From: an uncultured bacterium
GTDB taxonomy: Bacteria > Eisenbacteria > RBG-16-71-46 > CAIMUX01 > WJJG01
Assembly (NCBI GenBank): GCA_964654025.1
Contig: CAZZIF010000002.1
Location: 883-64,882 of the forward strand
DNA: 64,000 nt
Reading direction: 5' to 3'
Position numbers and translations under genes: made by a program. The notes under the pieces were generated by a model. It made no database searches, was not told the DNA's origin, and saw only the letters and a program-made list of their open reading frames with translations. Below are positions 3,179 through 51,142 of the stretch, piece after piece. Numbering within the stretch: the first letter of the stretch is position 1; each line of letters starts with the position of its first letter.

Positions 3179-3266
3179 GGGGAGCCTCCTAGGTGAGGTT
3201 TCGGCTGCTGGGCGGTCTCTCCCCAACGCAAATGCGCGTGCGCAGGTGAAGCCGCCCGCAGCCCCG

Positions 3267-3410
3267 TACGCCGGCATGCCGCTGCATGCGGCTGCGTACG
3301 CCGGCATGCGGCTGCGTGCAGCGGCGTGTGGCGGTCTACGGCGGCGTGCAGCGGCGTGTGGTGGCCTACGGCGGTGTGTGGCGGTCTACGGCGGCGTGCA
3401 GCGGCGTGCG
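3267..3410. repeat. Tandem repeat array, ~30-bp unit (GTACGCCGGCATGCSGCTGCRTGCRGCKGC-like) x ~5 with internal 15-bp sub-repeat
   Basis: Direct reading of 3267-3410, immediately 5' of the ALDH start on the minus strand. Confidence 0.8.
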
Positions 3411-3751
3411 GCCAAGCTGCTAACGGCCGGAGGTGGTGTAGATTGAGCGGCGGGTTGCCGATGCATGGCGTAGGTGGTTCGCTCGAGCATCAGAAGGAGC
3501 TTTCCAGGCGAGTGATCGGCATTGCGGAGCCAGGTGCGCAGGGCGTACCCTTGTTCTCTTGCGCTGAAGTTCGAGCGATGCTCGGACACAGCGAGCGATG
3601 GAGCCGGCTTCCCGGGCGAGCGGTTCGGGCGACGCTGTCAGGATGGACGAAGATGGACAAAGATGGACGATGATCGATGATGATCGACGGAGCTTGGATG
3701 TGCCCAGGGAACCTGAGCTGAGCATAGAGAGCCCTATTAAGGAGTAGGTCG

Positions 3752-4705: not shown

Positions 4706-4766
4706 AGAAGACAACGACTAGAGAAAGCACCGACTAGAGACGGCAACGGCTAGAGAAAGCAACGAC
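4703..4766. repeat. 16-bp tandem repeat x4 (TAGAGAARSCAMCGRC); first unit contains the TAG stop of the upstream gene
   Basis: Direct reading; units at 4703, 4719, 4735, 4751. Confidence 0.85.
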
Positions 4767-7666: not shown

Positions 7667-7935
7667 AACAGCACCTCTAGCAGTAAAAACGCATGCACCT
7701 GTAACACCTGAAGTACCTGAGGCATTTGAAGCACCAGAAGCATTCGCGGTTCACCCCGATCACGGGGCTTCCTCGGTGTCCCGGGTGCGACTGTGCCTAC
7801 GGGGCCCGATGCGCCGAAGACACGCTAGGACCGTAGTGGCCGGCGCGAGCGCGCGGCATAGGGGATGTCCCGGTGTGGTCGTGGGGACCACATCGCTGCC
7901 AGGTCTGGGGCGGAGCGTTCGCTATCGTCAGCATT

Positions 7936-8024
7936 CGGAGCCAGCCGGAGCCATCTGGGACCATCCGGAGCCATCCGGAGTCATCCGGAGTCATCCGGAG
8001 TCATTCAGAGTCATTCAGAGTACG
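7936..8024. repeat. 10-bp tandem repeat (GGAGYCATYC) x ~9
   Basis: Direct reading. Overlaps the 3' end/stop of the NlpC/P60 gene on the minus strand. Confidence 0.85.
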
Positions 8025-8518
8025 CGGCGAGCCATCCAGAAGACCTCGCGCCAATAGGGAGTGTCGATGTTGGAGATCGTGACCCCGCGTTGCCCGCTCG
8101 AATGCACGAACTCTCGTTGACCGAGGTAGATGCCTACGTGGCGACTGCCCGAGCGCCGCTTGAAGAAGACCAGATCGCCGGGAAGCAGATCCGGTCGACT
8201 GATCTTCATGCCGACCTCCACCTGTGTCTTGGTCGTCCGGGGCAGACGGCGGCCGAAGTGGTCGGCGAATACGCGCACCACCAGACCGGAGCAATCGACG
8301 CCACCGCGGCTCATCCCGCCCAAGCGGTAGGCTGTGCCCAGCCAGGGGACGACCGCCTCGCGGAGTTTCTTCTCGACCGCGCTGGCAGTTGCGGCGACCG
8401 CCGGATCACTGGCGGGGTGGCGGGGGGGCGGTGCGCTGGGTCCACAGCCGTTCATCAACAGGCCTCCTGACAAGGTCAAGGCCAGTATGAAGAGAAGTCG
8501 ACTTCGGGCTCGATTCAT
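8015..8518 (-). CDS. NlpC/P60 (C40) family cell-wall peptidase lipoprotein
   Basis: Lipoprotein signal (LLMNGCG). Conserved GTAYRLGG...GVDCSGLV catalytic-Cys motif and downstream His. Confidence 0.75.
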   Translation of the reverse strand: MNRARSRLLFILALTLSGGLLMNGCGPSAPPPRHPASDPAVAATASAVEKKLREAVVPWLGTAYRLGGMSRGGVDCSGLVVRVFADHFGRRLPRTTKTQVEVGMKISRPDLLPGDLVFFKRRSGSRHVGIYLGQREFVHSSGQRGVTISNIDTPYWREVFWMARRVL

Positions 8519-12132: not shown

Positions 12133-12210
12133 CTGCAGAGAGGCAGCCGGCGGAGAGGCCACCCGCAGTGAGGCAGCCCGCGGTGAGTCCCCCGCGGGGA
12201 GGCCCTCCGC
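12133..12210. repeat. Degenerate ~15-bp tandem repeat (GWGAGGCMSCCSGCG) x ~5 in divergent intergenic region
   Basis: Direct reading between the tricorn start (12059, -) and the MATE start (12350, +). Confidence 0.6.
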
Positions 12211-14783: not shown

Positions 14784-14944
14784 CGGGGCTCCTCGCTGAA
14801 TGTGTTCTTCCTCGTCCTTGAGTCACATGCAGCCATGATGCGAGACCAGCTCGAAGGTCTCCATCGGGAGCGCGCGGTTGCGGTGCTCAGGTGATCCCCG
14901 ACCACGCTTTTTCGAGGAATAGCCCCCGCTGGTCAGCAGCCAGT

Positions 14945-15036
14945 GAGGTTCGCGGTGGTGAGCAAGCGAGGTGCGCGGTGGTGAGCAAGCGAGGTGCGCG
15001 GTGGTGAGCCAGCGAAGGTTCCCGGTGGTGAACCGG
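14945..15036. repeat. 23-bp tandem repeat (GAGGTGCGCGGTGGTGAGCAAGC) x4
   Basis: Direct reading in the divergent intergenic region between 14783 (-) and 15189 (+). Confidence 0.85.
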
Positions 15037-17695: not shown

Positions 17696-18253
17696 TCACG
17701 ACTGCGTCACCCGTACGGTCGTGGCCTGGGGACCCTCCAGGGCCTGTGCTTCGGCGAACGCTACCGGTGTGCCAATGCTCAGCGCATCGAACTCTTCGTT
17801 GAGCACGCTATTGCGATGGAAGTAGATCTCCCGGCCGTCGACGGTCTTGATGAATCCGTAGTCCTTGTCCGGATAGATCTGGCTCACGAGGGCTTGGGCC
17901 TGCTGCTCCGGATGGACCTTGATCTCGCCCCGCTGCCGCTCGACGATCTCCGTGACCCGCCGGCGCGCCGTATCGAATGCCCGCCGAATGACGGTCTCGA
18001 CGGGTTCGTGCATCTGTCCCTGGCCGGGCTCGCGCGATACGACGATCTCGTGCCCCGGCGGGATTTGCATGTTCACACGGACGCGGTAGGAAGAACCGGC
18101 GTCCTGGTGGGCTTGCGGCTTTTCGATGGCCACCCTGCAACTGGTGAGGTAGTCACAAACCTGCTCGAGCTTGCCGACTTTCTCCTCGACGAGCGCGACC
18201 AGATGCGGATCTCGGCGGAGATTGCGGAAGCTGAGTTCCAGCGGGACCTGCAT
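17696..18253 (-). CDS. Ribosome-hibernation-factor-like (HPF/RaiA/YfiA) domain fused to a C-terminal cold-shock (CspA-like) domain
   Basis: AGGAGG RBS 6 nt upstream of the ATG at 18253. The N-terminus MQVPLELSFRNLRRDPHLVALVEEKVGKLEQ resembles the sigma-54 modulation/HPF fold. The C-terminus DYGFIKTVDGREIYFHRNSVLNEEFDALSIGTPVAFAEAQALEGPQATTV resembles the CSD RNP motifs. The ORF-track N-terminal extension runs into a repeat array. Confidence 0.55.
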   Translation of the reverse strand: MQVPLELSFRNLRRDPHLVALVEEKVGKLEQVCDYLTSCRVAIEKPQAHQDAGSSYRVRVNMQIPPGHEIVVSREPGQGQMHEPVETVIRRAFDTARRRVTEIVERQRGEIKVHPEQQAQALVSQIYPDKDYGFIKTVDGREIYFHRNSVLNEEFDALSIGTPVAFAEAQALEGPQATTVRVTQS

Positions 18254-18264
18254 GCGTGCCTCCT

Positions 18265-18360
18265 GTGGATTGTGGCTGTGGATTCGGGCAGTGGATTCGG
18301 GCGGTGGGTTCGGGTCCTCGGTTCGGGTCCTCGGTTCGGGTCGTGGGATCGCGTCGTGGG
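18265..18360. repeat. Degenerate 13-bp tandem repeat (GTGGRTTCGGGYS) x ~8 in the shared 5' region of the HPF-CSD gene and treZ
   Basis: Direct reading. Confidence 0.8.
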
Positions 18361-18740
18361 TTCGCACCGCGGGCCGAGGCCGGCAACGCGCTGGGCGGAT
18401 CGACCTGGCCGCCCTATCATTTCCCACCGCCAGAACATGACCTCAAGATAGCCTTGCCCATCGCGCGGCTCCCACGGGAGAAATCCCATCCGGAGCTTCC
18501 GGAGAATCCTTACTTTGGCCATTGGCGGGGTCGAAGCTCGTCCAGGTGACTAGGACGTTCGAAGGAACTGTCGTACGATGGAGCCGGCGACGGGCTGGAC
18601 GGCGACGGGCTGGACGACGCGGGTTGGTCGCCGGGTTGGTCGACGAGCGGTTCGACGATTTGTTCGGCGTGCTGGCTGGTAGGCCGGTCGATGCCAACAG
18701 AGACAGGGACAGGCCGAGGCTGAGAATAGGAAGACCAAGG

Positions 18741-20597
18741 ATGGTGGAAACGCAACACAAGCACAGTTCGCCTTTTGGTGCGGAGATTCGTCCTGACGGC
18801 CAGGTTCGGTTTCGACTGTGGGCACCCGATCTCACCTCCGTAACGCTCGTTCTCGAGCCGCGCGGCCGAGAGACCATCAGGCTTCCGCTCGACTCCGCTG
18901 GCGAGGGGTGGTTCGAGGTCCTGAGTTCGGTGGTGGGTGCCGGCGATCGCTATCGCTTTCGCCTCCCAGACGGGCTGGAGGTTCCCGACCCGGCGTCTCG
19001 ATGGCAGCCCGAGGGAGTCCATGGACCGAGCGAGATCGTCGATCCCCTGGCCTACCGATGGACCGCCACGAACTGGCAAGGTCGCCCTTGGGAAGAGCTC
19101 GTTCTGTACGAACTGCACGTCGGGACCTTCACGCCGCAAGGCACCTTCGCCGCCGCGGCCGAGCAGCTACCCCGGCTCGCCGATCTTGGCGTGACCGGAA
19201 TCGAGCTGATGCCGGTGGCCGCGTTTCCGGGAAAGCGGAACTGGGGCTACGATGGAGTGCAACCGTTCGCTCCGGCCGATTCCTACGGAACTCCCGACGA
19301 CCTCAAGGCCCTGGTCGACGCCATCCATGCACACGGCATGGCCGCCATGCTCGACGTGGTCTACAACCACTTCGGACCCGAGGGCAATTATCTGCACTGC
19401 TACGCGAAGCCCTTCTTCACGTCGCGCTATGAGACCCCGTGGGGAGCGGCCATCGACTTCGAAGGTCCGCAGAGCGAAGTGGTGCGGCAATTCTTCATCC
19501 AGAACGCTCTCTTCTGGCTGGAGGAGTACCGGTTCGATGGCCTGCGGCTCGATGCAGTCCACGCCATCACGGACCACTCCCGGCCGGACATCCTCGAGGA
19601 ACTGGCCGCGCGAGTCCATCGCGGGCCCGGCGCCGAGCGGGAGGTGCATCTGGTTCTGGAGAACGACAACAACGAGTCGCACTATCTGAAGCGCGCGGCC
19701 GACGGCCGGCCCCTCCAGTTCGTAGCGCAGTGGAACGACGACATCCACCACGCCTTTCACTGTCTGTTGACCAGCGAGAAGGAGGGATACTACCAGGACT
19801 ACGCCTCCGATCCCCTCAGCCATCTGGGACGTTGTCTTAGCGAGGGGTTTGCGTATCAGGGCGAGGCCTCTGCCTTCCGAGACGGCGAGACGCGCGGTGA
19901 GAGAAGCGGGCATCTCCCGGCCTCGGCATTCGTCTCCTTCGTACAGAACCATGACCAGATCGGCAATCGAGTCTTCGGCGAACGGCTGACGACCTTGTGT
20001 GAGCCGCGAGCGCTTCAGGCAGCCACGGTCGTTCTTCTGCTGGCCCCATCGGTGCCGCTGATTTTCATGGGAGAGGAGATTGGTTGCCGCCGGCCGTTCC
20101 TGTTCTTCTCCGACTTCGGCCCCGACCTGGCCGGCCGCGTGACGGAGGGCCGTCGCCGTGAGTTCGCCTCGTTTCCAGAGTTCGCTGATCCGGAAGCGGT
20201 CGGGCGGATTCCCGACCCCCAAGATCCGGCCGTGTTCGGGCAGGTAGTGATCGATTGGCGGCAATCCGGGCGGGGAGTGGCGGCGCACTGGGAAGCGTTC
20301 TACAAACACTATCTGGAGATCCGTCGACGCGACCTGGTGCCGCGGCTGCCGAACATGCCGGGCGACCGATCCGAGTGGCGCCGACTCGGTGACCGGGCGC
20401 TGGAAGCCAAGTGGACGCTCGGCGATGGGAGCCGACTGTGCCTGCTCGCCAATCTGGGCGAAGAGGCCGTCGATGGCCAGCAGCCCTCGGGCAGGTTGAT
20501 CGCCGACTTCCACCTGCAATCGGCTCCCAGCGAATCGACCGTCCGGCTCCCCGGATGGTCGGTCGGTGTGTATCTGGACGAGCGGGAGACACCGTAG
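18741..20597 (+). CDS. treZ: Malto-oligosyltrehalose trehalohydrolase (GH13)
   Basis: N-terminal FGAEIRPDGQVRFRLWAPDLTSVTLVL (TreZ CBM48 start). GH13 catalytic regions GYDGV, GLRLDAVHAI, ENHDQ. The ATG at 18741 is preferred over the ORF-track start. Confidence 0.85.
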   Translation: MVETQHKHSSPFGAEIRPDGQVRFRLWAPDLTSVTLVLEPRGRETIRLPLDSAGEGWFEVLSSVVGAGDRYRFRLPDGLEVPDPASRWQPEGVHGPSEIVDPLAYRWTATNWQGRPWEELVLYELHVGTFTPQGTFAAAAEQLPRLADLGVTGIELMPVAAFPGKRNWGYDGVQPFAPADSYGTPDDLKALVDAIHAHGMAAMLDVVYNHFGPEGNYLHCYAKPFFTSRYETPWGAAIDFEGPQSEVVRQFFIQNALFWLEEYRFDGLRLDAVHAITDHSRPDILEELAARVHRGPGAEREVHLVLENDNNESHYLKRAADGRPLQFVAQWNDDIHHAFHCLLTSEKEGYYQDYASDPLSHLGRCLSEGFAYQGEASAFRDGETRGERSGHLPASAFVSFVQNHDQIGNRVFGERLTTLCEPRALQAATVVLLLAPSVPLIFMGEEIGCRRPFLFFSDFGPDLAGRVTEGRRREFASFPEFADPEAVGRIPDPQDPAVFGQVVIDWRQSGRGVAAHWEAFYKHYLEIRRRDLVPRLPNMPGDRSEWRRLGDRALEAKWTLGDGSRLCLLANLGEEAVDGQQPSGRLIADFHLQSAPSESTVRLPGWSVGVYLDERETP

Positions 20598-20663
20598 ACG
20601 AGTGGGAAACATCGCCGACGAGCGGGAGACGGAGACACCGTAGACGAGCGGGAAGCACCGTGG
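20578..20663. repeat. ~20-bp tandem repeat (GACGAGCGGGAGACACCGTA) x4 spanning the treZ stop codon and the treZ-malQ/treY spacer
   Basis: Direct reading. Confidence 0.85.
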
Positions 20664-20675
20664 AGAGGAGCGCAC

Positions 20676-23600
20676 ATGGACCGAGAAGCACTCGCGGCAC
20701 TGGCCGATCGGGCCGGGATCGAGCCGGAGTACTGGGACATCCGTGGTCAAAGGCACCAGATCACCGATGGAACGAAGCTCACCTTGTTGCGGGCCATGGG
20801 GCTTCCGGTCGCTGATGAGGGTGACCTGCGCCGGGTGCTGACGGAATGGGATGATGCGATCTGGCTTCGCGGGATCCAACCGGTGCTCGTCAAGACGGGC
20901 GGTGATGCCCCGATCGAGGTGGATCTGCACTGGCCGGTGGAAGCGCTGGAGCAGACCGTCGTCTGGACATTACAAGAGGAAGGCGGCATCCGCCATCAGG
21001 ATCGATTCGTACCGGCCGGGTTGGAAATGGTCGCGGAACGCACGATCCGTGGACGACCGTTCGTCCGATTGAGGCTACGCATCCACGCCAGCACGGCACT
21101 TGGGTATCACACCCTGTGGATTGAACCCGAGGAAGCGTCTGAAGCGTCCAATGCAACGTACGACGATCCTCCGGCAGGCGCATCAGAACGGCCTCCCAAG
21201 AGCGCTGCCGAGAGTGTCCAGAGCATGCGGCTCATCGTCGCCCCGACAGCTTGTTACATTCCCCCGGGCATGAGCGACGAGGATCGGGTGTGGGGACCGG
21301 CGGTGCAGCTCTATGCCCTGCGATCGGTGCGCAACTGGGGTGCCGGCGATTTCAGCGACCTGACCGTCCTTCTCGAACTCGCGGCCGAGCAAGGGGCTGG
21401 AATGGTCGGTCTCAATCCCCTACACGCCCTCTTCCCTCACGATCACACCCGGCGTAGTCCGTATAGTCCCTCCAGCCGGCGTTTCCTGAATACATTCTAC
21501 ATCGACGTCGAAGCGGTACCGGAGTTCAGGGAGTGCGAAGCCGCTCGCCGTCTGGTCGGCGAGCCTCGCTTCCAGGCACAGCTGCTCTCCCTTCGCGAGG
21601 CCGAGTTCGTGGACTTCGCGGCGGTGTCGAGCGCGAAGCGTTCCGTCTTGGAACGTCTCTACGAGGAGTTTCGCAACCGGCACGTGGCCAACAGCACCGC
21701 CCGTGCGGAAGCCTTCCGCGCCTATCAAGTCCGCGGGGGACACCGTCTCTGGCAGCACGCGGTCTATGAGGCCTTGTCCGAACACCTTCACGCGAAGGAT
21801 CCACACCTCTGGGGGTGGCCGGTATGGCCCGAGGCATACCGTGACCCGGACGGCGCCGCGGTACTGGCCTTCGCCCAGGAAAATCACGCCCGCGTGGAGT
21901 TCTTCCAGTACCTGCAGTGGGTCGCCCAGGAGCAGTTCGCCGGCGCGGGACGGCGATCCTTGGATTTGGGACTGAAGGTCGGGTTGTATGAGGATCTCGC
22001 GATCGGGGTCGACATCGGTGGGCTCGATACCTGGTTGGATCAGAGCCTGTATGCGCTCGATGCCCGCATCGGGGCCCCCGCGGATGACTTCAACCCGGAA
22101 GGGCAGGAGTGGGGTTTGCCGCCGATGATCCCGCATCGGCTGCGTGCGACCGGGTACCAGCCGTTCATCGAGGTGCTGCGCGCCAACATGCAGCACGGCG
22201 GCGTGCTCCGAATCGATCACGTCATGGGTTTGATGCGCCTGTTCTGGGTTCCGTCGGGCGAGAAGCCGACTCACGGCGCCTACGTGCGCTACGCGCTATC
22301 CGACCTGCTCGCGGTCCTGGCGCTGGAAAGCCAACGGAACCACTGCATGGTGGTGGGGGAGGACCTCGGCACCGTCGATGATCGCGTGCGAGATGCGATG
22401 GGGCCGGCGCAGATCCACGCCTACCGGGTCTTCTACTTTACGAAGGGCGAAGACGGGGCCTTCCGGCTTCCGGAGAATTATCCTTCTCAGGCGCTGGTCA
22501 CGGTGAGTACCCATGACTTGCCCACCCTTCCCGGCTACTGGGAGGGCCGCGACATCCATGTGCGCGGGGAGCTGGATCTCTATCCGGACCCGGCCACCGA
22601 AGAGGAACAGGTTCTCACGCGCGGGCAGGACCGCACCCGCATCATGGTGTCCTTGTCGAAAGCGGGATTGTTGCCCAAGGGCACCGGACTCGACGCCGCG
22701 CTTCTGCCGGACCTGCCCGACAGCTTGATCCAGGCCATCCATGCCTATCTGGCGCGAACACCGTCTCGCATGATGACCTTCCAGTTCGAGGATGTGATGG
22801 GTCAGCTCGACCAGGTGAACTTCCCCGGAACCGTCGACGAGCATCCGAACTGGTGCCGGAAGCTCCCGATCACCCTCGAGGCGATTGGTGAGGACCCACG
22901 CTGGACGGGGCTCACCGAGGTCCTCCGGCGGGAGAGGGGCATGGGACGCGTGGCCGCGGACCGGGAAGATGAGGTCCAGCGAACGGGACCGGATGCCCTG
23001 GTCCCCCGCGCGACCTACCGTTTGCAAATGAACCGGCGCTTCACCTTCGACGATGCCGCGCGCCTGGTTCCGTACTTGAAGCGGCTCGGCATTAGCCACT
23101 GCTATCTGTCGCCGGTGTTGAAAGCGCGCCCGGGCAGTCTGCACGGCTACGACATCATCGACCACAACGAACTCAATCCCGAGATCGGCGGACGGGGGGC
23201 CTTCGATCATCTGGTGCACGTGCTTCATCAGCATCAGATGGGCCTGATCCTGGACATGGTGCCGAACCACATGGGCATCGGCTGGGACAATCCATGGTGG
23301 TACAACGTGCTCGAGAACGGACCCGCCTCACCCTACGCCGGTTTCTTCGACATCGACTGGCAGCCGGTCAAGCCGGAACTGCATGGCAAGGTGCTGCTGC
23401 CCGTTCTGGAAGATCACTATGGGCTGGTCTTGGAGCGGGGCCTCCTGAAGGTGATTTTCGACGCCGGAACCGGTGAGTTCACCCTGGGCTACCATGACCA
23501 TCGATTTCCGCTGGATCCGCGAACCTATCCCACCCTCTTGACCCATGGGATCGAGCGATTGCAGCAGGAGCTGGGAGCCGAAGATCCGAACCTTCACGAG

Positions 23601-25988
23601 CTGCAGACGCTCATCGATGCTCTCACCAACCTGCCGGACCGACATGAGACCGAGAGCGAGAAGATTGCCGTCCGCCTGCGCGATCAAGAGGTCCTCAAGC
23701 GTCACCTCGTTCGAATCTGCGCGGTGAATGAAAGCATTCTCCGATTCGTGCATGCGGTGGTGGAGGTCTTCAACGGGCGGAAAGGGCACCCGGGCAGCTT
23801 CGACCGGTTGGACGCGTTGCTGGCCCACCAAGCCTATCGCCTGGCGTTCTGGCGCGTCGCTTCTGACGAGATCAACTACCGGCGCTTCTTCGATATCAAC
23901 GATCTGGCCGGGCTGTCGATGGACAATCCGGAGGTTTTCGACCGAACCCACCGGCTGGTGATGGAATGGATCAGCCAGGGGAAGGTCCAGGGACTCCGCA
24001 TCGATCACCCCGATGGACTGCGGGATCCGTTGGACTACTGTCGCCGGCTACAGGAGGCGGCCCGTGTGGCGCGCGGACCCCGCGGAGGACGGAGAACCAT
24101 AAACCCATCCACCGGGTGTGACAATCCTTCGTGCGAGCCCGAAGCGGTCTACATTGCCCTCGAGAAGATCCTGATCGGGGACGAGCAGTTGCCCCAGGAC
24201 TGGCCCGTGCATGGAACCACCGGGTACGAGTACGCGTCTGCGGCGACCGGAATGCTGATCGATCAGAGTGCCGAAGCAGCTCTGGAGCGCATCTACAATC
24301 GGTTCGTTGGCCGCAAGACCGAGTTCGCCGAGTTGCTCTACCGCTGCAAGAAGATGATCGTTCACGGGCCTCTGGCCAGTGAACTCAACGTCCTTGCCAC
24401 GGATCTGAACCGGATCGCAGAGTCCGATCGTCACACGCGCGATTTCACGCTCAGCCGCATCAAGGAGGCGTTGGCGGAAGTCGTCGCCTGCTTCCCCGTT
24501 TACCGAACCTATGTCACCGGACGGGGCGTGAGCCCAGAGGATCGCCGGTACGTCGACCAGGCCATCGCCGAGGCCCGGATGCGTTCTCAAGCGATCGATG
24601 TCAGTATCTACGACTTCATCGCCCGCATGCTGCTGCTCGACTTCACCGAGCGCACACCCGAAAGCGTGCGATCTTCGGCGACGCGCTTTGCGATGAGTTT
24701 TCAGCAGTACACGGGACCGGTCATGGCCAAGGGCATGGAGGACACCGCATTCTACGTCTTCTACCGGCTTCTCTCGCTCAATGATGTGGGGAACGATCCC
24801 ACACGGTTCGGGCGGTCGGTGGCCGAATTCCACGAGCGCAACCGGGATCGGGCTCAAGATCGGCCCCATGCCCTCTTGAGCAACTCGACACACGATCATA
24901 AGCGCAGTGCGGACGTGCGGGCGCGAATCAATGTCCTCTCGGAAGTCCCCGACCGCTGGCAAGCGTGCGTGTCTGGCTGGAATCGAATGAACCGCAGTCA
25001 CAAGCGCCGAGTGGCGGGCCTGTTCGCGCCGACGAAGAATGACGAGTACGCCTTCTATCAGACGCTGATCGGCGTCCATCCCGCGGGCGCCCTCACCGGA
25101 GATCAGATCGACACATTCCGTGAACGTATCGAGCGCACCATGATCAAGTCCGTGCGTGAGGCGAAGGTGCACAGCAGCTGGATCAATGTCAATCCGGCCT
25201 ATGAGGATGCAACGTTATCCTTCGTCCGCGCAGTTCTGGCCGATGATCGCGAGGACGGCTTCCTGGCTGACTTCAGAAGGTTCCAAAGCAAGGTTGCGTT
25301 TTTCGGTATGCTGAATGGTCTGGCCCTCACGTTGCTCCAGCTCACTGTCCCCGGCGTGCCGGACATCTATCAAGGAGACGAACTGTGGCGCTACTCCCTG
25401 GTCGATCCCGACAATCGGCGCCCGGTGGACTTCGCGTTGCGCCAGCGGATGCTGCGAGAACTCGACCAGCAGCAACGCGAGCCGTCCCTTTCGCAAGACG
25501 AATCAAGTGGCGATTCGGAAGCCTCGGAAGCCGATGCCGCATCCGTCCCGGCACTCGCGCGAACGCAGGATCTCTTCTCGTCTTTGTCGGACGGACGGGC
25601 CAAACTATACGTGCTCAGCCGGGTGTTGAGGCTACGCGCTCAATTGCCGGAGCTGTTCAGCTCGAGCGAGTATGAGGCGCTCGCGGTTCGGGGGAGCCTG
25701 GCCGATCACGCCTGCGCCTATCTTCGGCGTCATGGAGAGCGGGCGATGATCGTCATTGTGCCGCGTCTGTGCGCCAAGCTCCTGGACTTCACACCGGGAC
25801 GGATGCCGGTCGGCGAAAAGGTGTGGGGTGATACGTGGATCGAGCTGGCGAGGCCTGAGGCCGGGCGCGTCCTTCGCCACGTCCTGACCCGTGAGACGCT
25901 GGAACCGGGTCAGGGTGACCAGTCGGGGAGGATTCCGATGGGTGAGGCCCTCCGGTCGATTCCGGTCGGCCTCTTCTTGTGCGAATAG
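20676..25988 (+). CDS. treY: Bifunctional 4-alpha-glucanotransferase (GH77, MalQ-like N-terminal half) / malto-oligosyltrehalose synthase (TreY, C-terminal half), 1770 aa
   Basis: Continuous ORF with a GGAGAGGAG RBS. Residues 1-~760 carry the MalQ N-terminus ALADRAGIEPEYWDIRGQ and the GH77 core. Residues ~770-1770 begin ATYRLQMNRRFTFDDAARLVPYLKRLGISHCYLSPVLKARPGSLHGYDIIDH, the TreY start and GH13. Confidence 0.85.
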   Translation: MDREALAALADRAGIEPEYWDIRGQRHQITDGTKLTLLRAMGLPVADEGDLRRVLTEWDDAIWLRGIQPVLVKTGGDAPIEVDLHWPVEALEQTVVWTLQEEGGIRHQDRFVPAGLEMVAERTIRGRPFVRLRLRIHASTALGYHTLWIEPEEASEASNATYDDPPAGASERPPKSAAESVQSMRLIVAPTACYIPPGMSDEDRVWGPAVQLYALRSVRNWGAGDFSDLTVLLELAAEQGAGMVGLNPLHALFPHDHTRRSPYSPSSRRFLNTFYIDVEAVPEFRECEAARRLVGEPRFQAQLLSLREAEFVDFAAVSSAKRSVLERLYEEFRNRHVANSTARAEAFRAYQVRGGHRLWQHAVYEALSEHLHAKDPHLWGWPVWPEAYRDPDGAAVLAFAQENHARVEFFQYLQWVAQEQFAGAGRRSLDLGLKVGLYEDLAIGVDIGGLDTWLDQSLYALDARIGAPADDFNPEGQEWGLPPMIPHRLRATGYQPFIEVLRANMQHGGVLRIDHVMGLMRLFWVPSGEKPTHGAYVRYALSDLLAVLALESQRNHCMVVGEDLGTVDDRVRDAMGPAQIHAYRVFYFTKGEDGAFRLPENYPSQALVTVSTHDLPTLPGYWEGRDIHVRGELDLYPDPATEEEQVLTRGQDRTRIMVSLSKAGLLPKGTGLDAALLPDLPDSLIQAIHAYLARTPSRMMTFQFEDVMGQLDQVNFPGTVDEHPNWCRKLPITLEAIGEDPRWTGLTEVLRRERGMGRVAADREDEVQRTGPDALVPRATYRLQMNRRFTFDDAARLVPYLKRLGISHCYLSPVLKARPGSLHGYDIIDHNELNPEIGGRGAFDHLVHVLHQHQMGLILDMVPNHMGIGWDNPWWYNVLENGPASPYAGFFDIDWQPVKPELHGKVLLPVLEDHYGLVLERGLLKVIFDAGTGEFTLGYHDHRFPLDPRTYPTLLTHGIERLQQELGAEDPNLHELQTLIDALTNLPDRHETESEKIAVRLRDQEVLKRHLVRICAVNESILRFVHAVVEVFNGRKGHPGSFDRLDALLAHQAYRLAFWRVASDEINYRRFFDINDLAGLSMDNPEVFDRTHRLVMEWISQGKVQGLRIDHPDGLRDPLDYCRRLQEAARVARGPRGGRRTINPSTGCDNPSCEPEAVYIALEKILIGDEQLPQDWPVHGTTGYEYASAATGMLIDQSAEAALERIYNRFVGRKTEFAELLYRCKKMIVHGPLASELNVLATDLNRIAESDRHTRDFTLSRIKEALAEVVACFPVYRTYVTGRGVSPEDRRYVDQAIAEARMRSQAIDVSIYDFIARMLLLDFTERTPESVRSSATRFAMSFQQYTGPVMAKGMEDTAFYVFYRLLSLNDVGNDPTRFGRSVAEFHERNRDRAQDRPHALLSNSTHDHKRSADVRARINVLSEVPDRWQACVSGWNRMNRSHKRRVAGLFAPTKNDEYAFYQTLIGVHPAGALTGDQIDTFRERIERTMIKSVREAKVHSSWINVNPAYEDATLSFVRAVLADDREDGFLADFRRFQSKVAFFGMLNGLALTLLQLTVPGVPDIYQGDELWRYSLVDPDNRRPVDFALRQRMLRELDQQQREPSLSQDESSGDSEASEADAASVPALARTQDLFSSLSDGRAKLYVLSRVLRLRAQLPELFSSSEYEALAVRGSLADHACAYLRRHGERAMIVIVPRLCAKLLDFTPGRMPVGEKVWGDTWIELARPEAGRVLRHVLTRETLEPGQGDQSGRIPMGEALRSIPVGLFLCE

Positions 25989-26886: not shown

Positions 26887-27211
26887 GAATGCCTCCCGTT
26901 TCCTTCTGCACGTGCAAGAAGTCATGTGATCGACGCACATCACTCTAAGACCACTGCGTGTCACCGGATACCAGGGAGATACTGGCGTGGCGACCGTTCG
27001 TTTCCGTCCTCGTGCGTGGGGGCACTCCCCAGGAGATCCCCGGTGGGATGCGATGCGGTAAGAGTGGATTGCCCGGTGTCCTCGTGAACGGTGATGCGCT
27101 ATTGAATGGAGTATCCGGTAGCCAGATAAGTGCCGCCGACAGGGCGGGTACAATCGATTTGTGGCCGACGAACACAATGGGGTGACGACCTTGAAGCGAC
27201 GCGAGGGACCA

Positions 27212-28795
27212 ATGGTGGAACGACGGATCGCAAAGAAGCGCGGACGAGAGGTCCAGTTGCTGGGCCTGCTTGTCATCGGCAGCCTCGGGCTTCTTGCCGG
27301 ACCAGCCCGAATCGGTGACCTCGGACCTGCGGCGAGTCTGGGGTTCGTGGCCACTGCGCAGACCGCAAACCAGCCAGAGCGCGCCAGCGCAGATCCCAGC
27401 TTGGACCAGCCTCTTGACGAGGTGGCTCCGGATCTGCGCATCCGCAGAAACGTCGAGCGCGCGTTGTCGGCAACCTGGGCGGTTCCCGCTGACAGCATCG
27501 CGACGGCGGTTGCGGATGGAATCGTGACGCTTTCGGGCTCGGTGCCCCATCTGCTGGCCAAGGACCAGGCGACACGGGCGGCCGAGGCCGTGCGTGGGGT
27601 TCGCGCCATCGTGAACCGCGTGGAGGTGCGGCCCCTTGCCCGCAGCGACGCCTTTTTGAGGGAACGGATTTCGAGGGCGTTGGCGGCGGATCCGGTGGTG
27701 GAGGCCGAGGACATCACGGTGGACGTCCTTCACGGTGAGGTCACCCTTTCTGGACCAGTGGGCTCCATAGTGGAGCAGCGCGCGGCGGTCCAGGCGGCCA
27801 AACGAATCGTAGGCGTGCTGGGTGTTCGCAATCTGCTTGACCTGGTCCCCGAACTGGATCGGCCCGATGAACGCATCGAGGAGGAAGTCAAACGCCGCCT
27901 GCGCTACGACGCGCTCGTGGTTGCCGATCGGATCGCGGTCGACGTCGAGGGCGGACATGTTCGTCTGTCGGGTCGGGTGCCCTGTGCTGCAGAGCGTAGG
28001 CGCGCCGAGACGGATGCCTCGGTCCCCGGCGTGCGATCCGTCCATGTAGAAGATCTGGTCGTGGATCCAGACATGGATCGCGCGTTCATGCACCGTGCGG
28101 ATCTGGTTGCCTCAGACTCTCCGAGTCTGGCAGAGGCCCCCAGTGACGAGGAGATCGAGCAGGCGATTGTCGCGTCGCTGTTTCAGGATCCACGGATCGG
28201 TGTGGATTTGATCGAAGTCGAGGTCGACGAAGGCGTCGCCTTTCTGCAGGGACAGGTCGAGCGACCGCGCGAAGTGCGTCTGGCTGAAGAGAACGCACGT
28301 CATACAGTGGGGGTCCTGGCGGTCAGGAATCACTTGAGCGTACGGCCGCCTCAGCGTCCCTCCGACCGGCAGCTCCAGGGCGCCGCCGAGGAAGCGCTCC
28401 AGGCGAATGCCTATGTGAACGGCGACTCGATCGAGGTGGCCGTCCATGGAGGGCTCATCTATCTGTTCGGCACAGTGGCCGATCATGGAACGGTTCGCGA
28501 GGCCATTGAAGTTCTGGAAAGCGTGCCCGGGGCGGTCGCGGTACTCAATAACCTGCGGGTTCTTCGCAACGGATCCGAGATGTCCGACGAAGAGCTGCGC
28601 AAGCGGGTGCAGTGGTTGATCGAGGGGTCGGCGCTGATCAAGGCGGATGAGGTCGTGGTCCTGTCCAATACCGGAACGGTCAGTCTCCGGGGTGATGTTC
28701 AGACCTGGACGGGGCGCGCCGTCGCGGAGGATCTGGCCTACCGGGCGGGTGCGCTCAGCGTCATCAACCGTCTGCAGGTGAGCGGTACCCGGTAA
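27212..28795 (+). CDS. Multi-BON-domain protein (OsmY-like), secreted/periplasmic
   Basis: Six or more BON repeats (pattern I..AL......V.V.V..G.V.LSG.V). N-terminal hydrophobic segment. The start at 27212 is uncertain. Confidence 0.65.
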   Translation: MVERRIAKKRGREVQLLGLLVIGSLGLLAGPARIGDLGPAASLGFVATAQTANQPERASADPSLDQPLDEVAPDLRIRRNVERALSATWAVPADSIATAVADGIVTLSGSVPHLLAKDQATRAAEAVRGVRAIVNRVEVRPLARSDAFLRERISRALAADPVVEAEDITVDVLHGEVTLSGPVGSIVEQRAAVQAAKRIVGVLGVRNLLDLVPELDRPDERIEEEVKRRLRYDALVVADRIAVDVEGGHVRLSGRVPCAAERRRAETDASVPGVRSVHVEDLVVDPDMDRAFMHRADLVASDSPSLAEAPSDEEIEQAIVASLFQDPRIGVDLIEVEVDEGVAFLQGQVERPREVRLAEENARHTVGVLAVRNHLSVRPPQRPSDRQLQGAAEEALQANAYVNGDSIEVAVHGGLIYLFGTVADHGTVREAIEVLESVPGAVAVLNNLRVLRNGSEMSDEELRKRVQWLIEGSALIKADEVVVLSNTGTVSLRGDVQTWTGRAVAEDLAYRAGALSVINRLQVSGTR

Positions 28796-29177: not shown

Positions 29178-29327
29178 GGCACGGGTTCCAATGCACGGGT
29201 TCCAATGCACGGGTTCCAATGCACGGGTTCCAAAGTACGGCGTCGAGGAGGGGTATCGCAGGGTGCATGTCGGCCGACATGGGCTCCGTTCCCGATTCGA
29301 CATCCGTACATCTAGAGGGAGAAGGGG

Positions 29328-33429: not shown

Positions 33430-33480
33430 AGGAAAGGGCGCCCAAGGGCGCCAAGGGGCGCCGAAGGACTCCAAAGGGCG

Positions 33481-34539
33481 CTAGACGGATGCTTCTTGGC
33501 GCTCATCACGTTGTGCCGAACCGGCGCCGCGCCGGCCCAGCATGTACTTGGCGAGATCGACCACCCGACACACATATCCCCACTCATTGTCGTACCAGGC
33601 GAGGACCTTGACGCTGTGCGAGCCTACCGTCTTGGTGGAAGGGAGGTCCACCAAAGCCGAGTACTCGCTGCCGACGATGTCAGCGGAGACCAGCTCGTCG
33701 CCGGTGGTGCCGAGGACCCCCCGAAGCTTGTCACGGCCCTCTCCCTCGAGAAACACCCGATGAACGGCATCGGTGTCGGTCTCGCGCCTCGTATGCACGA
33801 CAAGATCTACGATGGACCCATCGGCCACCGGCACCCGCATGGCCATCCCATCCATGCGCCCCTCGAGTTGAGGCAGGACATCAGCGATGGCTGTCGCTGC
33901 CCCGGTTGTGGTAGGGATGATCGAAATGGCGGCAGCGCGGCCTCGGCGATGTTTCTTGCTGGGGGAGTCGACCAGCGACTGGGAGTTCGTGTAGGCGTGG
34001 ACCGTCGTCATGAGGCCGCTCTCGATGCCAAAGGCCTCGTCCAAGAGCATGGCGACCGGGGCTAGACAATTGGTTGTGCAGGATCCATTCGAGACGATAT
34101 CGTGTTTCTCGTGATCGTAGATGTCCTCATTGACACCCATGCAAATCGTCGCATCCGGTTTGGGGCTCTTGCCGGGGGCCGTAATGACGACCTTTGTGGC
34201 GCCGGCTTCGAGATGCTGCGCCGCCTCGTCGCGGGTGCGGAAGATGCCGGTAGCTTCCACGACAAACTCCACCTCGAGTTGCGCCCAAGGTAACTCGGTG
34301 GGTTTGGCCTTGTTCAGGTAGGCGATCTTGCGGTCACCCCAATGCAACGTATCGCCCTTCCCATGAATCAGAACTTCAGGGTCAGGATAAATCGAGTCGT
34401 GTTTGCAGAGATAGGCGATTTCTTCAATTCCCGCGATGTCGTTGACGGCCACGACCTCGAGAGACTCTTGCGCCATCATCTGGCGCAGGGTGAGCCGACC
34501 CATGCGACCCATTCCGTTGATGGCAACTCGTGTACTCAC
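33481..34539 (-). CDS. gap: Type I glyceraldehyde-3-phosphate dehydrogenase
   Basis: GTG start at 34539 with an AGGGAGGA RBS 5 nt upstream, giving MSTRVAINGMGRMGR. NAD motif. SCTTNCLAP catalytic Cys. Confidence 0.85.
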   Translation of the reverse strand: MSTRVAINGMGRMGRLTLRQMMAQESLEVVAVNDIAGIEEIAYLCKHDSIYPDPEVLIHGKGDTLHWGDRKIAYLNKAKPTELPWAQLEVEFVVEATGIFRTRDEAAQHLEAGATKVVITAPGKSPKPDATICMGVNEDIYDHEKHDIVSNGSCTTNCLAPVAMLLDEAFGIESGLMTTVHAYTNSQSLVDSPSKKHRRGRAAAISIIPTTTGAATAIADVLPQLEGRMDGMAMRVPVADGSIVDLVVHTRRETDTDAVHRVFLEGEGRDKLRGVLGTTGDELVSADIVGSEYSALVDLPSTKTVGSHSVKVLAWYDNEWGYVCRVVDLAKYMLGRRGAGSAQRDERQEASV

Positions 34540-34877
34540 ATCGTCCTCCCTTGCGATGGATGGCGTACGATTGCGATCCATTCAGCCAATGTCTTGGGAC
34601 CGTAGATACCGATGGGCTCACGTTCCATCGGGCGATCGGTCGCACGCGCTTGGAGGCAATGGCCCTTGGGCGACTGGGGATGTTTCCGAGAGTCCGCCTG
34701 GAACAGGCACGATGGGGTGGTCTCCCCACGACGCATTGGCGGAAGAACCCACGCCGCAACGGCAGTCGACCGGGTGGGGTGGCGACGCGTCGGGTGATAA
34801 ACAGATTCTAGACAATCGTTGGCGGCCACGGACAACGAACGATGGAGAAGCAAATCCGCCCACCTGGAGGTTGACCA

Positions 34878-36068
34878 ATGACCATCATGGATCCAATTCC
34901 GGACCGAGAGGGTGTTCTCGATCTATTGCGCGACTCGGGCTGGCCGCGCCTGTCGATCTACATGCCGACCGGCCGACCCGGGTCGGAAGCGCAGAAGAAC
35001 CAGATTCGGTTCAAGAACCGCATCCAGGAGGCCGCTGGCGGCCTCATTGCCGGCGGCATGAGAACTCGCCAAGTCCAAGACTTCCTGGCGCCGATCCGCG
35101 CCATGATCGACGATCAGCGATTCTGGCGGTATCAGGCCGACGGTCTGTGCATGTTTCAAAGCCCGAACTCACTGCGCTACTTCCGTCTGCCGCGAAGAGT
35201 GCCCGAGTTGACCGTGGTTTCGAAGAGCTACCACATCAAGCCTCTCCTCCCGCTCTGGAGCGATCAGATGCGTTGCTACCTCCTGTCGGTGGACCTTCGC
35301 GAGGTCGATCTGTTCGAGGTCGATGCTCTTGGATTGCGGCAGGTCCAATCGAACGACGATCTGCCCGAGGGCATCGAGGAGTTCCGACCCGATGAAGGCG
35401 ACAATGGGGGCCTGCAATGGCACACCGGAGGGGAGGGTGAGCGTGCCACGGCGGGCACGCCCGGCGAAACCGGCCCCATCTACCATGGTCATGGTCGCGG
35501 CAAGGATGCCTCACTCGAGAAGGAACGCATCTTGGCCTACCTGCGAGAGGTCGAAGACGTGGTCACCCGGCGGGTGGCCGGCTCCGAGGTCCCGCTCATT
35601 CTAGCGGGCGTGGAGTATCTTCTCCCTCTATATCGAGAGGCGAATCACTATCCGCACGTGCTGCCGGCGGATCTGCCGGTCAATACCCGCGAGATGAGCG
35701 AGGACGATCTTCATCAGGAAGTCTTGAGGCTCATGCAACCACTTCAAGAGCAGCGGCGTGATGAGCTCCTCGAGCGCTACCGGACGATGCGACCACGGCA
35801 GCGAACCTCTCGTGGCATCAAGGATGTCCTGGTGGCCGCCACAGCCGGCAGGGTGGATACGCTCTGGGCTCAGGGAGAGGCCTACTGCTGGGGACGATAC
35901 GATCCCGCGACCACCCAGGTAGACATCCACGCACGTCAGCATCCATACGATGAGGACCTGGTCAACACGGCGGCGGTTGAGGCGCTCAAGACCCAGGCGC
36001 AGGTGCTATTGGCCGAACCGGAGCAGATGCCGGAAGAGGGCAAGGTGGCAGCTCTGCTGCGCTATTAG
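34878..36068 (+). CDS. Bacterial archaeo-eukaryotic release-factor-like (baeRF/Rv2629-like) family protein, putative
   Basis: N-terminal LDLLRDSGWPRLSIYMPT, then LCMFQSPNSLRYFRLP and CYLLSVDLREVDLFEV. These resemble the conserved N-terminal blocks of eRF1-like bacterial families (M. tuberculosis Rv2629 type). The call rests on pattern recognition only. Confidence 0.45.
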   Translation: MTIMDPIPDREGVLDLLRDSGWPRLSIYMPTGRPGSEAQKNQIRFKNRIQEAAGGLIAGGMRTRQVQDFLAPIRAMIDDQRFWRYQADGLCMFQSPNSLRYFRLPRRVPELTVVSKSYHIKPLLPLWSDQMRCYLLSVDLREVDLFEVDALGLRQVQSNDDLPEGIEEFRPDEGDNGGLQWHTGGEGERATAGTPGETGPIYHGHGRGKDASLEKERILAYLREVEDVVTRRVAGSEVPLILAGVEYLLPLYREANHYPHVLPADLPVNTREMSEDDLHQEVLRLMQPLQEQRRDELLERYRTMRPRQRTSRGIKDVLVAATAGRVDTLWAQGEAYCWGRYDPATTQVDIHARQHPYDEDLVNTAAVEALKTQAQVLLAEPEQMPEEGKVAALLRY

Positions 36069-36127
36069 CTCCGCTATTAGCTGCGCTACCAGCCGCGCTA
36101 CTCGCTGCCCACTAACTGTTCCGCCGG

Positions 36128-36836: not shown

Positions 36837-37054
36837 GGGTGTTCCCTCCCTCTCTTGCCGTGACGCACCTTGTCCCATCCGGGTGGGCACAGTCCCAAAG
36901 GCGAGGTCAGTCTAGAACGGCGGAGGAAGAGGGCAAATGGGAGCTGTTCTGAGGGCAGCGTGGGAGGGCTCCCGATATTCCGCGCCAGAGTGTGCTTCGT
37001 AGGCTGTGCATGAAGTTCAGGCCGCATGTGCATCGCCCTCCGATGCAACACGAT

Positions 37055-37110
37055 GGCCCCATGACGGTGGCCCGATGATGACGGCCCCATCACGATGGCT
37101 CCATGAAAGC
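37055..37110. repeat. ~15-bp degenerate tandem repeat (GATGGCCCCATSACG) x3 immediately upstream of ppsA
   Basis: Direct reading. Confidence 0.6.
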
Positions 37111-37123
37111 ACACGGAGCAGAT

Positions 37124-39559: not shown

Positions 39560-39636
39560 CCCAGGTGAGTCGCGATCTCATCGATCCGATCGCTCGAAGA
39601 GACACTCTTAGAGAAACTCAAGGAAAGGGGGCCATC

Positions 39637-49283: not shown

Positions 49284-49295
49284 GATGGGACCCCC

Positions 49296-51133: not shown

Positions 51134-51142
51134 GGACGTACC

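What the first reader, a model, noticed from the sequence alone, without database searches (positions are those of the whole stretch)
18741..25988. treZ followed by a 1770-aa MalQ-TreY fusion (4-alpha-glucanotransferase + malto-oligosyltrehalose synthase)
A single uninterrupted ORF joins a complete GH77 MalQ-like half to a complete TreY half. Together with treZ this encodes glucan-to-trehalose conversion, with a built-in disproportionating activity that could supply longer maltooligosaccharides from short ones. No separate treX (debranching enzyme) is present in the window. The treZ stop lies inside a 20-bp x4 tandem repeat.
Basis: seen in the sequence. Interest (0 to 1): 0.5.

Follow-up and report, generated by a model that had tools for sequence, protein, structure and literature searches.

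The report
Known MalQ-TreY fusion beside treZ
The window carries a real two-gene module for making the stress sugar trehalose from starch-like glucans, in which a chain-reshuffling enzyme is fused to the first trehalose-forming enzyme. This fusion is common among bacteria and already has a curated family, so it is ordinary.

Summary
treZ (18741..20597) is followed after 78 nt by one uninterrupted 1770-aa ORF (20676..25988). That ORF joins a complete GH77 MalQ (aa 2-754) to a complete long-form TreY (aa 777-1765).

The fusion is not a frameshift artefact. The same single reading frame spans both halves in 59 of 63 independent genome loci that carry both. These come from Gamma- and Betaproteobacteria, Desulfobacterota, Nitrospirota, Holophaga and Eisenbacteria.

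The protein matches NCBIfam NF011077 (PRK14507) end to end, 2170.5 bits against a cut-off of 2148. All six catalytic carboxylates are present, and they are conserved in 117-120 of 120 fused homologues.

The gene order treZ-malQ-treY is the one in the Pseudomonas glgA operon, where the genes are separate. The architecture is therefore already known. I found no paper that characterises a natural fusion biochemically.

No glgX/treX, glgA, glgB, glgC or glgP lies in the 64 kb, although about half of the related loci have glgX directly upstream of treZ.

The 20-bp x4 repeat over the treZ stop is real and is kept in a 94%-identical relative. It is one of 26 short tandem arrays in the window. This lineage has more than ten times the usual density of such arrays, mostly between genes. 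That lineage-wide excess is the most curious thing seen here.

The parts
18741..20597 (+). treZ, malto-oligosyltrehalose trehalohydrolase (GH13, CBM48 + catalytic domain + DUF3459), 618 aa. GH13 motifs are present: DVVYNH, GLRLD271AVH, VLE307ND, NHD405.
   Evidence: TIGR02402 699.4 bits against cut-off 538.8. Pfam CBM_48, Alpha-amylase and DUF3459. PDB 3m07 at 6e-150 and 1eh9/2bhu TreZ structures at about 1e-120. Motif positions.
20577..20661 (.). Tandem repeat of a 20-bp unit, four copies (consensus GACGAGCGGGAAACACCGTA). Copy 1 is the 3' end of treZ, including most of its TAG stop. Copy 3 carries a 6-nt insertion. The array fills most of the 78-nt treZ/malQ-treY spacer.
   Evidence: TRF and sequence. 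Conserved as four copies in L001. Absent from L082 (20-nt spacer) and L083 (4-nt overlap). No promoter- or terminator-like site in it. RNA fold z = -1.9.
20662..20670 (+). Shine-Dalgarno-like GGAGAGGAG, 5 nt upstream of the ATG of malQ-treY
   Evidence: Sequence. Identical in L001.
20676..25988 (+). malQ-treY fusion gene, 1770 aa, one uninterrupted ORF
   Evidence: NF011077 matches aa 2-1767 to profile positions 4-1688 of 1693, 2170.5 bits against cut-off 2148.
20679..22937 (+). MalQ half (aa 2-754): MalQ_N beta-sandwich (aa 69-155) and GH77 catalytic domain (aa 210-731). Catalytic D514, E562 and D614 are encoded at 22215-22217, 22359-22361 and 22515-22517. A lineage-specific insert spans aa 151-180.
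   Evidence: Pfam. NF008274 708.5 bits. Alignment to E. coli MalQ 4s3p places D448/E496/D548 on D514/E562/D614. These are conserved in 117, 118 and 120 of 120 aligned fusion proteins (this one plus homologues).
22938..23003 (+). Inter-enzyme linker, about 22 aa (RGMGRVAADREDEVQRTGPDALV). Poorly conserved and variable in length.
   Evidence: Family alignment: mean conservation 0.37 and gap fraction 0.24 for aa 751-780, against 0.6-0.9 in the flanks.
23004..25970 (+). TreY half (aa 777-1765): long-form malto-oligosyltrehalose synthase (GH13). Motifs are DMVPNH (860-865), GLRID1110H, ALE1163K and THD1407. The catalytic codons lie at 24003-24005, 24162-24164 and 24894-24896. Lineage-specific inserts span aa ~1135-1155 and ~1598-1625.
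   Evidence: TIGR02401 958.4 bits against cut-off 498.65. NF011087 matches aa 771-1767 to profile positions 6-992 of 996. Alignments to TreY structures 6lcv, 5zcr and 1iv8. These residues are invariant in 120 of 120.

Best explanation
This is a genuine two-gene TreY/TreZ module for making trehalose from linear alpha-1,4-glucan. The amylomaltase MalQ is fused to the N-terminus of TreY.

Shown:
- Both genes are intact and lie on the same strand, 78 nt apart.
- No promoter- or terminator-like site lies between them.
- malQ-treY has its own ribosome-binding site.
- Both halves of the fusion and TreZ keep all catalytic residues.
- The fusion is an inherited and widespread architecture.

From established enzymology of the three families:
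- TreY turns the reducing-end alpha-1,4 bond of a maltooligosaccharide into an alpha,alpha-1,1 bond.
- TreZ then cuts off trehalose, leaving a chain two glucoses shorter.
- MalQ disproportionates maltooligosaccharides.

Inferred:
- As chains shrink to maltose or maltotriose, which are poor TreY substrates, the attached MalQ domain rebuilds them into longer chains plus glucose. More of the glucan then ends up as trehalose.
- Fusion fixes a 1:1 ratio of the two activities and keeps them close together.
- The fusion arose from the conserved adjacent gene pair malQ-treY in the treZ-malQ-treY order.
- The glucan source and any debranching enzyme must be encoded elsewhere in this genome.
For: - ORF and domain completeness.
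- Above the curated cut-off of the full-length fusion model NF011077.
- Catalytic residues map onto those of E. coli MalQ and of the S. acidocaldarius and Arthrobacter TreY structures. They are conserved across 120 aligned fusion proteins.
- TreZ is intact.
- A single open frame spans both halves in 59 of 63 loci from many phyla and independent assemblies. These include the isolates Nitrococcus mobilis Nb-231, Acidithiobacillus ferrivorans and A. ferruginosus, and Methylobacillus sp. MM3. Sulfurifustis variabilis also has a fused protein (P0031).
- treZ lies directly upstream in nearly all of these loci.
- The order treZ-malQ-treY with separate genes is documented in P. aeruginosa (PMC8084333), P. 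fluorescens (PMC6372562) and R. pseudosolanacearum GMI1000.
- P. aeruginosa MalQ was shown to disproportionate maltooligosaccharides down to maltose.
- No terminator- or promoter-like site lies in the spacer.
Against: - No enzyme activity has been measured for this protein. I found no paper that characterises any natural MalQ-TreY fusion.
- In P. aeruginosa, loss of the separate MalQ raised trehalose rather than lowering it. The net direction of MalQ's contribution is therefore not settled.
- The window holds no glgX/treX, glgA, glgB, glgC or glgP, so the substrate supply is unseen.
- Co-transcription is inferred only from the lack of consensus signals.
Confidence: 0.85

Rival explanations
1. 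The MalQ half works mainly as a drain or balance valve. It converts maltooligosaccharides to maltose and glucose for other routes such as TreS/Pep2-GlgE or catabolism. The fusion would then partition flux between trehalose and other sinks rather than raise the trehalose yield.
For: In P. aeruginosa, a malQ deletion raised trehalose (0.32 against 0.13%). MalQ together with TreS/Pep2 made maltose-1-phosphate from maltohexaose, bypassing TreY/TreZ (PMC8084333).
Against: No treS, pep2 or glgE lies in the window (one search found no further GH13 genes). A covalent 1:1 fusion to TreY, kept across many phyla, is easier to explain if the two activities cooperate than if they compete. None of this evidence is decisive.
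Confidence: 0.12
2. The 1770-aa ORF is a sequencing or assembly frameshift artefact that joins two separate genes.
For: Separate adjacent malQ and treY genes do exist: Ralstonia GMI1000, Virgifigura deserti L077 and Pseudomonas.
Against: The same in-frame junction occurs in 59 of 63 independent loci. It also occurs in the close relatives L001 (94%), L082 (78%) and L083 (63%), which come from different samples. The full-length profile NF011077 aligns across the junction. GC3 is uniform at 0.77 across the ORF.
Confidence: 0.01
3. One half is a catalytically dead, glucan-binding pseudo-enzyme, so the protein has a single activity.
For: None specific. Two or three of the 120 aligned homologues have substitutions at MalQ D514 or E562.
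Against: Both catalytic triads and the flanking GH13 and GH77 motifs are intact here and in nearly all homologues. The best-conserved 30-residue blocks include those holding the MalQ catalytic Glu (0.87) and the region just before the TreY nucleophile (0.89).
Confidence: 0.02

Closest known systems
NCBIfam NF011077 (PRK14507), full-length MalQ-TreY fusion proteins, e.g. Sulfurifustis variabilis P0031 (1698 aa), Nitrococcus mobilis Nb-231 (L009), Acidithiobacillus ferrivorans (L024), Methylobacillus sp. MM3 (L028)
   Same: They share the same domain order (MalQ_N, GH77, short linker, long-form GH13 TreY) and an end-to-end profile match above the cut-off. treZ lies directly upstream. All catalytic residues are present.
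   Different: Identity to named members is only about 47-53%. This protein has three lineage-specific inserts (aa 151-180, ~1135-1155, ~1598-1625), which make it about 50 aa longer. About half of the relatives have glgX immediately upstream of treZ; this locus and its close relatives do not.
Pseudomonas aeruginosa PAO1 glgA operon (glgA PA2165, treZ PA2164, malQ PA2163, treY PA2162, glgX PA2160)
   Same: The gene order treZ-malQ-treY and the three enzyme families are the same. This is the experimentally studied system (PMC8084333).
   Different: malQ and treY are separate genes there, and glgA and glgX belong to the operon. Here malQ and treY are fused, and no glgA or glgX lies within 64 kb.
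Ralstonia pseudosolanacearum GMI1000 megaplasmid glgB-glgX-treZ-malQ-treY
   Same: The gene order is the same. The window protein matches it across 97% of its length at 35.5% identity.
   Different: It is not fused. MalQ is in frame 1 and TreY in frame 3. The 1748-aa ORF seen there is a spurious high-GC open frame without a GH77 match.
Azospirillum ramasamyi plasmid 'treZ' WP_111068116.1 (1868 aa) plus separate treY
   Same: The same three enzymes occur in the same order.
   Different: The fusion partner differs. Mak_N_cap, CBM48-TreZ and MalQ form one protein, and TreY is separate. Gene fusion in this cluster has therefore happened in more than one way.
NCBIfam NF011082/NF011083 bifunctional GlgX/4-alpha-glucanotransferase
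   Same: A GH77 MalQ is fused to a GH13 glucan enzyme of the same pathway neighbourhood (one search lists the partial match).
   Different: The partner there is the debranching enzyme, placed N-terminal to MalQ. Here only the MalQ part matches (481 bits against cut-off 2511), so this protein is not a member.

Membership tests
NCBIfam NF011077 / PRK14507 (fused 4-alpha-glucanotransferase + malto-oligosyltrehalose synthase) | Full-length match to the 1693-position profile at or above the curated cut-off (2148 bits) | tested here: met
   2170.5 bits, aa 2-1767 to profile positions 4-1688
NCBIfam NF011077 / PRK14507 (fused 4-alpha-glucanotransferase + malto-oligosyltrehalose synthase) | Both halves in one polypeptide, with no stop or frameshift at the junction | tested here: met
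   Single ORF 20676..25988. The same arrangement occurs in 59 of 63 related loci.
NCBIfam NF011077 / PRK14507 (fused 4-alpha-glucanotransferase + malto-oligosyltrehalose synthase) | GH77 catalytic Asp/Glu/Asp (E. coli MalQ D448, E496, D548; the residue roles are from my own knowledge of the MalQ structure papers) | tested here: met
   D514, E562 and D614 align to them
NCBIfam NF011077 / PRK14507 (fused 4-alpha-glucanotransferase + malto-oligosyltrehalose synthase) | TreY (GH13) catalytic Asp/Glu/Asp (S. acidocaldarius D228, E255, D443; the residue roles are from my own knowledge) and GH13 regions I-IV | tested here: met
   D1110 and E1163 align to D228 and E255. D1407 was placed by the conserved THD motif. 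All three are invariant in 120 of 120.
NCBIfam NF011077 / PRK14507 (fused 4-alpha-glucanotransferase + malto-oligosyltrehalose synthase) | Both enzyme activities (EC 2.4.1.25 and EC 5.4.99.15) | not testable with these tools
   This needs purified protein. No published assay of a natural fusion was found.
TreY/TreZ trehalose pathway | A TreZ (TIGR02402) encoded with TreY | tested here: met
   699.4 bits against cut-off 538.8. It lies 78 nt upstream on the same strand.
TreX/TreY/TreZ (glycogen-to-trehalose) gene cluster | A debranching enzyme GlgX/TreX encoded alongside | tested here: not met
   No GlgX homologue lies in the 64-kb window. None is next to treZ in L001, L082 or L083. One is present upstream of treZ in about half of the other loci. 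Whether one exists elsewhere in the genome cannot be told.
Pseudomonas-type glgA operon (glgA-treZ-malQ-treY-glgX) | Gene order treZ, malQ, treY | tested here: met
   The order is the same, with malQ and treY fused
Pseudomonas-type glgA operon (glgA-treZ-malQ-treY-glgX) | glgA and glgX in the same cluster | tested here: not met
   tblastn with E. coli GlgA and GlgX finds nothing in the window

The most novel reading that the evidence does not exclude
The 20-bp x4 array that separates treZ from malQ-treY is not inert. It would be one member of a lineage-wide set of fast-changing intergenic tandem arrays. By changing copy number, such arrays would alter spacer length and so tune coupling or relative expression of neighbouring genes. 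Here the array would set the ratio of TreZ to MalQ-TreY.

The evidence shows three things:
- The arrays are more than ten times enriched in this lineage.
- They sit mostly between genes.
- Their positions are conserved while their copy numbers vary.

Nothing shown here links them to expression.
Probability: 0.1. Interest if true: 0.5.

Novelty: already known. Interest (0 to 1): 0.15.

Why it matters
It matters little for discovery. The result confirms that an uncultured lineage can make trehalose from alpha-glucan using a fusion enzyme that annotation pipelines already recognise. The lineage's nearest named relatives are Eisenbacteria and Desulfobacterota MAGs at about 50% identity.

Three minor points have some value:
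- The fusion is a clean 'Rosetta stone' case. It argues that MalQ and TreY cooperate functionally, a point still open after the P. aeruginosa work.
- No natural MalQ-TreY fusion seems to have been assayed. A one-protein route from short maltooligosaccharides to maltooligosyltrehalose could interest makers of trehalose.
- The surrounding window looks like a stress or dormancy neighbourhood. It holds a hibernation-factor/cold-shock fusion, BON-domain proteins, a GH65 gene next to a beta-PGM/trehalose-phosphatase fusion, and an N-ATPase. This fits a protective role for trehalose.

Tried and rejected
1. Stop-codon readthrough giving a TreZ-MalQ-TreY triple fusion. In the window, treZ and malQ-treY share a frame and are separated by one TAG and 26 sense codons. 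In L001 the spacer is 73 nt, so the genes are out of frame and further stops intervene. In L082 the spacer is 20 nt, and in L083 the genes overlap by 4 nt. The shared frame is therefore chance (1 in 3). Rejected.

2. Ralstonia GMI1000 as a studied organism with the fusion. A 1748-aa ORF covers the region, but it has no GH77 match. MalQ and TreY are in frames 1 and 3, so the genes are separate. For the same reason, the '158 plasmid records with at least 80% coverage' cannot be read as a count of fusions.

3. A promoter, terminator or structured RNA in the repeat. No consensus site was found. The fold z-score is -1.9, with 9 of 200 shuffles folding as well. Rfam and tRNA scans of the window found nothing.

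4. Naming the organism from the ATP synthase alpha subunit. It proved to be the 'alternate F1F0' N-ATPase, whose best hits are scattered across phyla. No taxonomic assignment was made. The nearest genome, L001, is labelled only 'uncultured bacterium'.

5. Literature on a characterised natural fusion. Six successful full-text searches found none; one search was a syntax error.

6. A single origin of the fusion. A rough NJ tree of TreY halves, without support values, places unfused TreY in several clades among the fused ones. This suggests repeated gain or loss but is not firm.
Full report
**1. Observation**

The window has a 1770-codon ORF at 20676..25988 on the + strand. It starts at ATG and has no internal stop. 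A GGAGAGGAG ribosome-binding motif lies 5 nt upstream of the ATG.

Upstream on the same strand is an ORF ending at 20597. From ATG 18741 it gives a 618-aa protein.

Tandem Repeats Finder reports an array at 20577..20661, with period 20, 4.0 copies, 69% matches and 16% indels. Read directly, the copies are:
- Copy 1: GACGAGCGGGAGACACCGTA
- Copy 2: GACGAGTGGGAAACATCGCC
- Copy 3: GACGAGCGGGAGAC[GGAGAC]ACCGTA
- Copy 4: GACGAGCGGGAAGCACCGTG

The treZ stop TAG (20595-20597) spans the junction of copies 1 and 2, so copy 1 encodes the TreZ C-terminus DERETP. The unit recurs more often than chance allows: 2 matches at 3 or fewer mismatches, against 0.01 expected.

**2. What the proteins are**

TreZ:
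- It scores 699.4 bits on TIGR02402 (cut-off 538.8) over essentially the whole profile.
- It has CBM48, the GH13 catalytic domain and DUF3459.
- It matches solved TreZ structures at about 1e-120.
- GH13 regions I-IV are intact, with D271, E307 and D405.

The large protein has two complete halves.
- MalQ half:
  - MalQ_N spans aa 69-155 and Glyco_hydro_77 spans aa 210-731 (E 1.4e-113).
  - The E. coli-type MalQ model NF008274 is covered over positions 2-689 of 695.
- TreY half:
  - TIGR02401 is covered over positions 1-834 of 838 by aa 777-1765, at 958 bits.

The curated full-length fusion model NF011077 (PRK14507, 1693 positions) aligns from aa 2 to 1767. The score is 2170.5 bits, just above its cut-off of 2148.

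Catalytic residues are all in place.
- Alignment to E. coli MalQ (PDB 4s3p) puts D448, E496 and D548 on D514, E562 and D614.
- Alignment to TreY structures (6lcv, 5zcr, 1iv8) puts S. acidocaldarius D228 and E255 on D1110 and E1163. D443 falls on D1407 by the conserved THD motif.
- The catalytic roles of these reference residues come from my own knowledge of the structural literature.

In an alignment of this protein with 119 fused homologues, the MalQ residues are kept in 117, 118 and 120 of 120 sequences. The TreY residues are kept in 120 of 120.

The linker of about 22 residues (aa 755-776) is the least conserved segment. Three inserts are specific to this lineage: aa 151-180, ~1135-1155 and ~1598-1625.

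**3. Artefact or real fusion?**

A search of 5.8 billion proteins returned 1322 hits at E <= 1e-10 among the 8000 candidates that were scored. The best 120 are all 1596-1791 aa, and 118 of them carry MalQ_N, GH77 and Alpha-amylase together; the other two lack only a recorded MalQ_N hit. Several are already named '4-alpha-glucanotransferase/malto-oligosyltrehalose synthase' by JGI.

A scan of one genome per species gave 79 loci. For each, I located the MalQ-half and TreY-half tblastn hits and asked whether both lie in one stop-free frame.
- This holds in 59 of the 63 loci that have both halves.
- The fused loci include Nitrococcus mobilis Nb-231, two Acidithiobacillus species and Methylobacillus sp. 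MM3.
- They also include MAGs of Gamma- and Betaproteobacteria, Desulfobacterota, Nitrospirota, Holophaga and Eisenbacteria.
- The close relatives L001 (94% identity), L082 (78%) and L083 (63%) come from separate samples and are fused too.

The frameshift explanation is excluded.

**4. Where the fusion came from**

The typical neighbourhood is glgX-treZ-[malQ-treY], sometimes with glgC, glgB or glgA nearby.

The same order with separate genes is found in three places:
- The P. aeruginosa glgA operon, glgA-treZ-malQ-treY-glgX (PMC8084333).
- P. fluorescens (PMC6372562).
- R. pseudosolanacearum GMI1000, shown here.

Other ways of joining the genes exist. Azospirillum ramasamyi has an annotated 1868-aa 'treZ' that is Mak_N_cap + CBM48-TreZ + MalQ, with a separate TreY. 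NCBIfam also curates GlgX-MalQ fusions.

Eighteen loci have TreY directly after treZ with no malQ between them. In a rough NJ tree these are interspersed among the fused forms. The fusion is thus one outcome of repeated rearrangement in a conserved cluster.

**5. How it most likely works**

- Established for the families:
  - TreY isomerises the reducing-end alpha-1,4 linkage to alpha,alpha-1,1.
  - TreZ releases trehalose and a chain two units shorter.
  - MalQ disproportionates maltooligosaccharides; P. aeruginosa MalQ acts even on maltose.
- Inferred: MalQ rebuilds the short leftovers into TreY substrates, and fusion fixes stoichiometry and proximity.
- Alternative: MalQ siphons chains to maltose and glucose. 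In P. aeruginosa, a malQ deletion raised trehalose from 0.13 to 0.32%. I give this about 0.12.
- The two genes are probably co-transcribed. No promoter- or terminator-like site lies in the spacer.
- The substrate source is unseen. The window has no GlgX, GlgA, GlgB, GlgC or GlgP homologue.

**6. The repeat**

L001 has a four-copy array at the same place. It has point differences, a 1-nt insertion in copy 2 and no 6-nt insertion. L082 has only a 20-nt spacer, and in L083 the genes overlap by 4 nt. The array is therefore a recent tandem duplication of the last 20 nt of treZ.

It is not special to this locus.
- The window holds 26 arrays of period 9-30, or 4.1 per 10 kb.
- L001 has 4.0 and L082 has 6.3 per 10 kb.
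- The 81 other loci have a median of 0, a mean of 0.33 and a maximum of 2.0 per 10 kb.
- At least 16 of the 26 lie mostly in the roughly 12% of the window that is non-coding, several exactly over a start or stop codon.
- Between the window and L001 the arrays keep their positions but differ in copy number. The 23-bp unit has 4.0 against 2.6 copies, and the 13-bp unit has about 8 against 3.3.

**7. Comparison and verdict**

The protein is a member of a curated, widespread family. It passes every membership feature that sequence alone can test. It differs from the textbook TreX/Y/Z cluster and from the Pseudomonas operon only in lacking glgX and glgA nearby.

I found no paper that characterises a natural fusion, so the mechanism beyond domain content remains inference.

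- Novelty: already known.
- Interest: low (0.15).
- The lineage-wide excess of intergenic tandem arrays is the item most worth a separate look.

Noticed in passing
whole window (26 arrays, e.g. 3258-3412, 4703-4766, 7932-8040, 12135-12203, 14938-15031, 18263-18364, 29179-29240, 33433-33481, 36056-36108, 37050-37106, 49294-49377, 52630-52708, 63885-63968); also L001 and L082: Short tandem repeats (period 9-30, 2-7 copies, each with its own unit) are more than ten times denser here than elsewhere. The window has 4.1, L001 4.0 and L082 6.3 per 10 kb, against a median of 0 and a maximum of 2.0 in 81 other bacterial loci. Most lie between genes, several exactly over a start or stop codon. Positions are conserved between the window and L001, but copy numbers differ. 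No function is known.
   Followed up: partly
window 45247-47706 (-) and 47688-49493 (-): A GH65 glycoside hydrolase/phosphorylase (818 aa) lies directly downstream of a 600-aa fusion, overlapping it by 19 nt. The fusion joins a beta-phosphoglucomutase-family HAD domain (TIGR02009, 157.9 bits) to a trehalose-phosphatase domain (TIGR00685, 161.9 bits). From memory, this resembles a split version of the mycobacterial OtsB1 domain set (HAD, GH65, TPP); I did not check that here. A review states that OtsB1's function is unknown (PMC11046441). This is a second trehalose-related module in the window.
   Followed up: partly
window 17696-18253 (-): This gene fuses a ribosome hibernation factor domain (Ribosomal_S30AE) to a cold-shock domain. 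It is transcribed divergently from treZ, and the arrangement is conserved in L082. A 13-bp tandem array (18263-18364) lies immediately upstream of its likely start.
   Followed up: partly
window 27161-28795 (+), 39565-41169 (+), 34878-36068 (+), 37103-39559 (+), 33481-34581 (-): Two proteins each have six BON domains. There is also a bacterial eRF1-like (baeRF family 3/7) protein, a PEP synthase/PPDK-type enzyme and a GAPDH. Together with the trehalose genes, this looks like a stress or dormancy neighbourhood.
   Followed up: no
window 50189-53628 (-): The ATP synthase alpha subunit at 51143-52741 belongs to the 'alternate F1F0' N-ATPase type, according to the names of its homologues. It carries a 12-bp (4-aa) tandem repeat in its N-terminal extension at 52630-52708.
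   Followed up: no
L081 6533-12139 (Azospirillum ramasamyi plasmid NZ_CP029830.1): The annotated 'treZ' is a 1868-aa protein that combines a maltokinase N-terminal cap domain, CBM48-TreZ and a complete MalQ. TreY is a separate gene downstream. This is a different fusion pattern within the same gene cluster.
   Followed up: partly
L084 5826-11072 (Ralstonia pseudosolanacearum GMI1000 megaplasmid): A 1748-aa ORF spans the malQ-treY region, but it is a spurious high-GC open frame. The real MalQ and TreY are in different frames. ORF length alone would wrongly suggest a fusion.
   Followed up: yes
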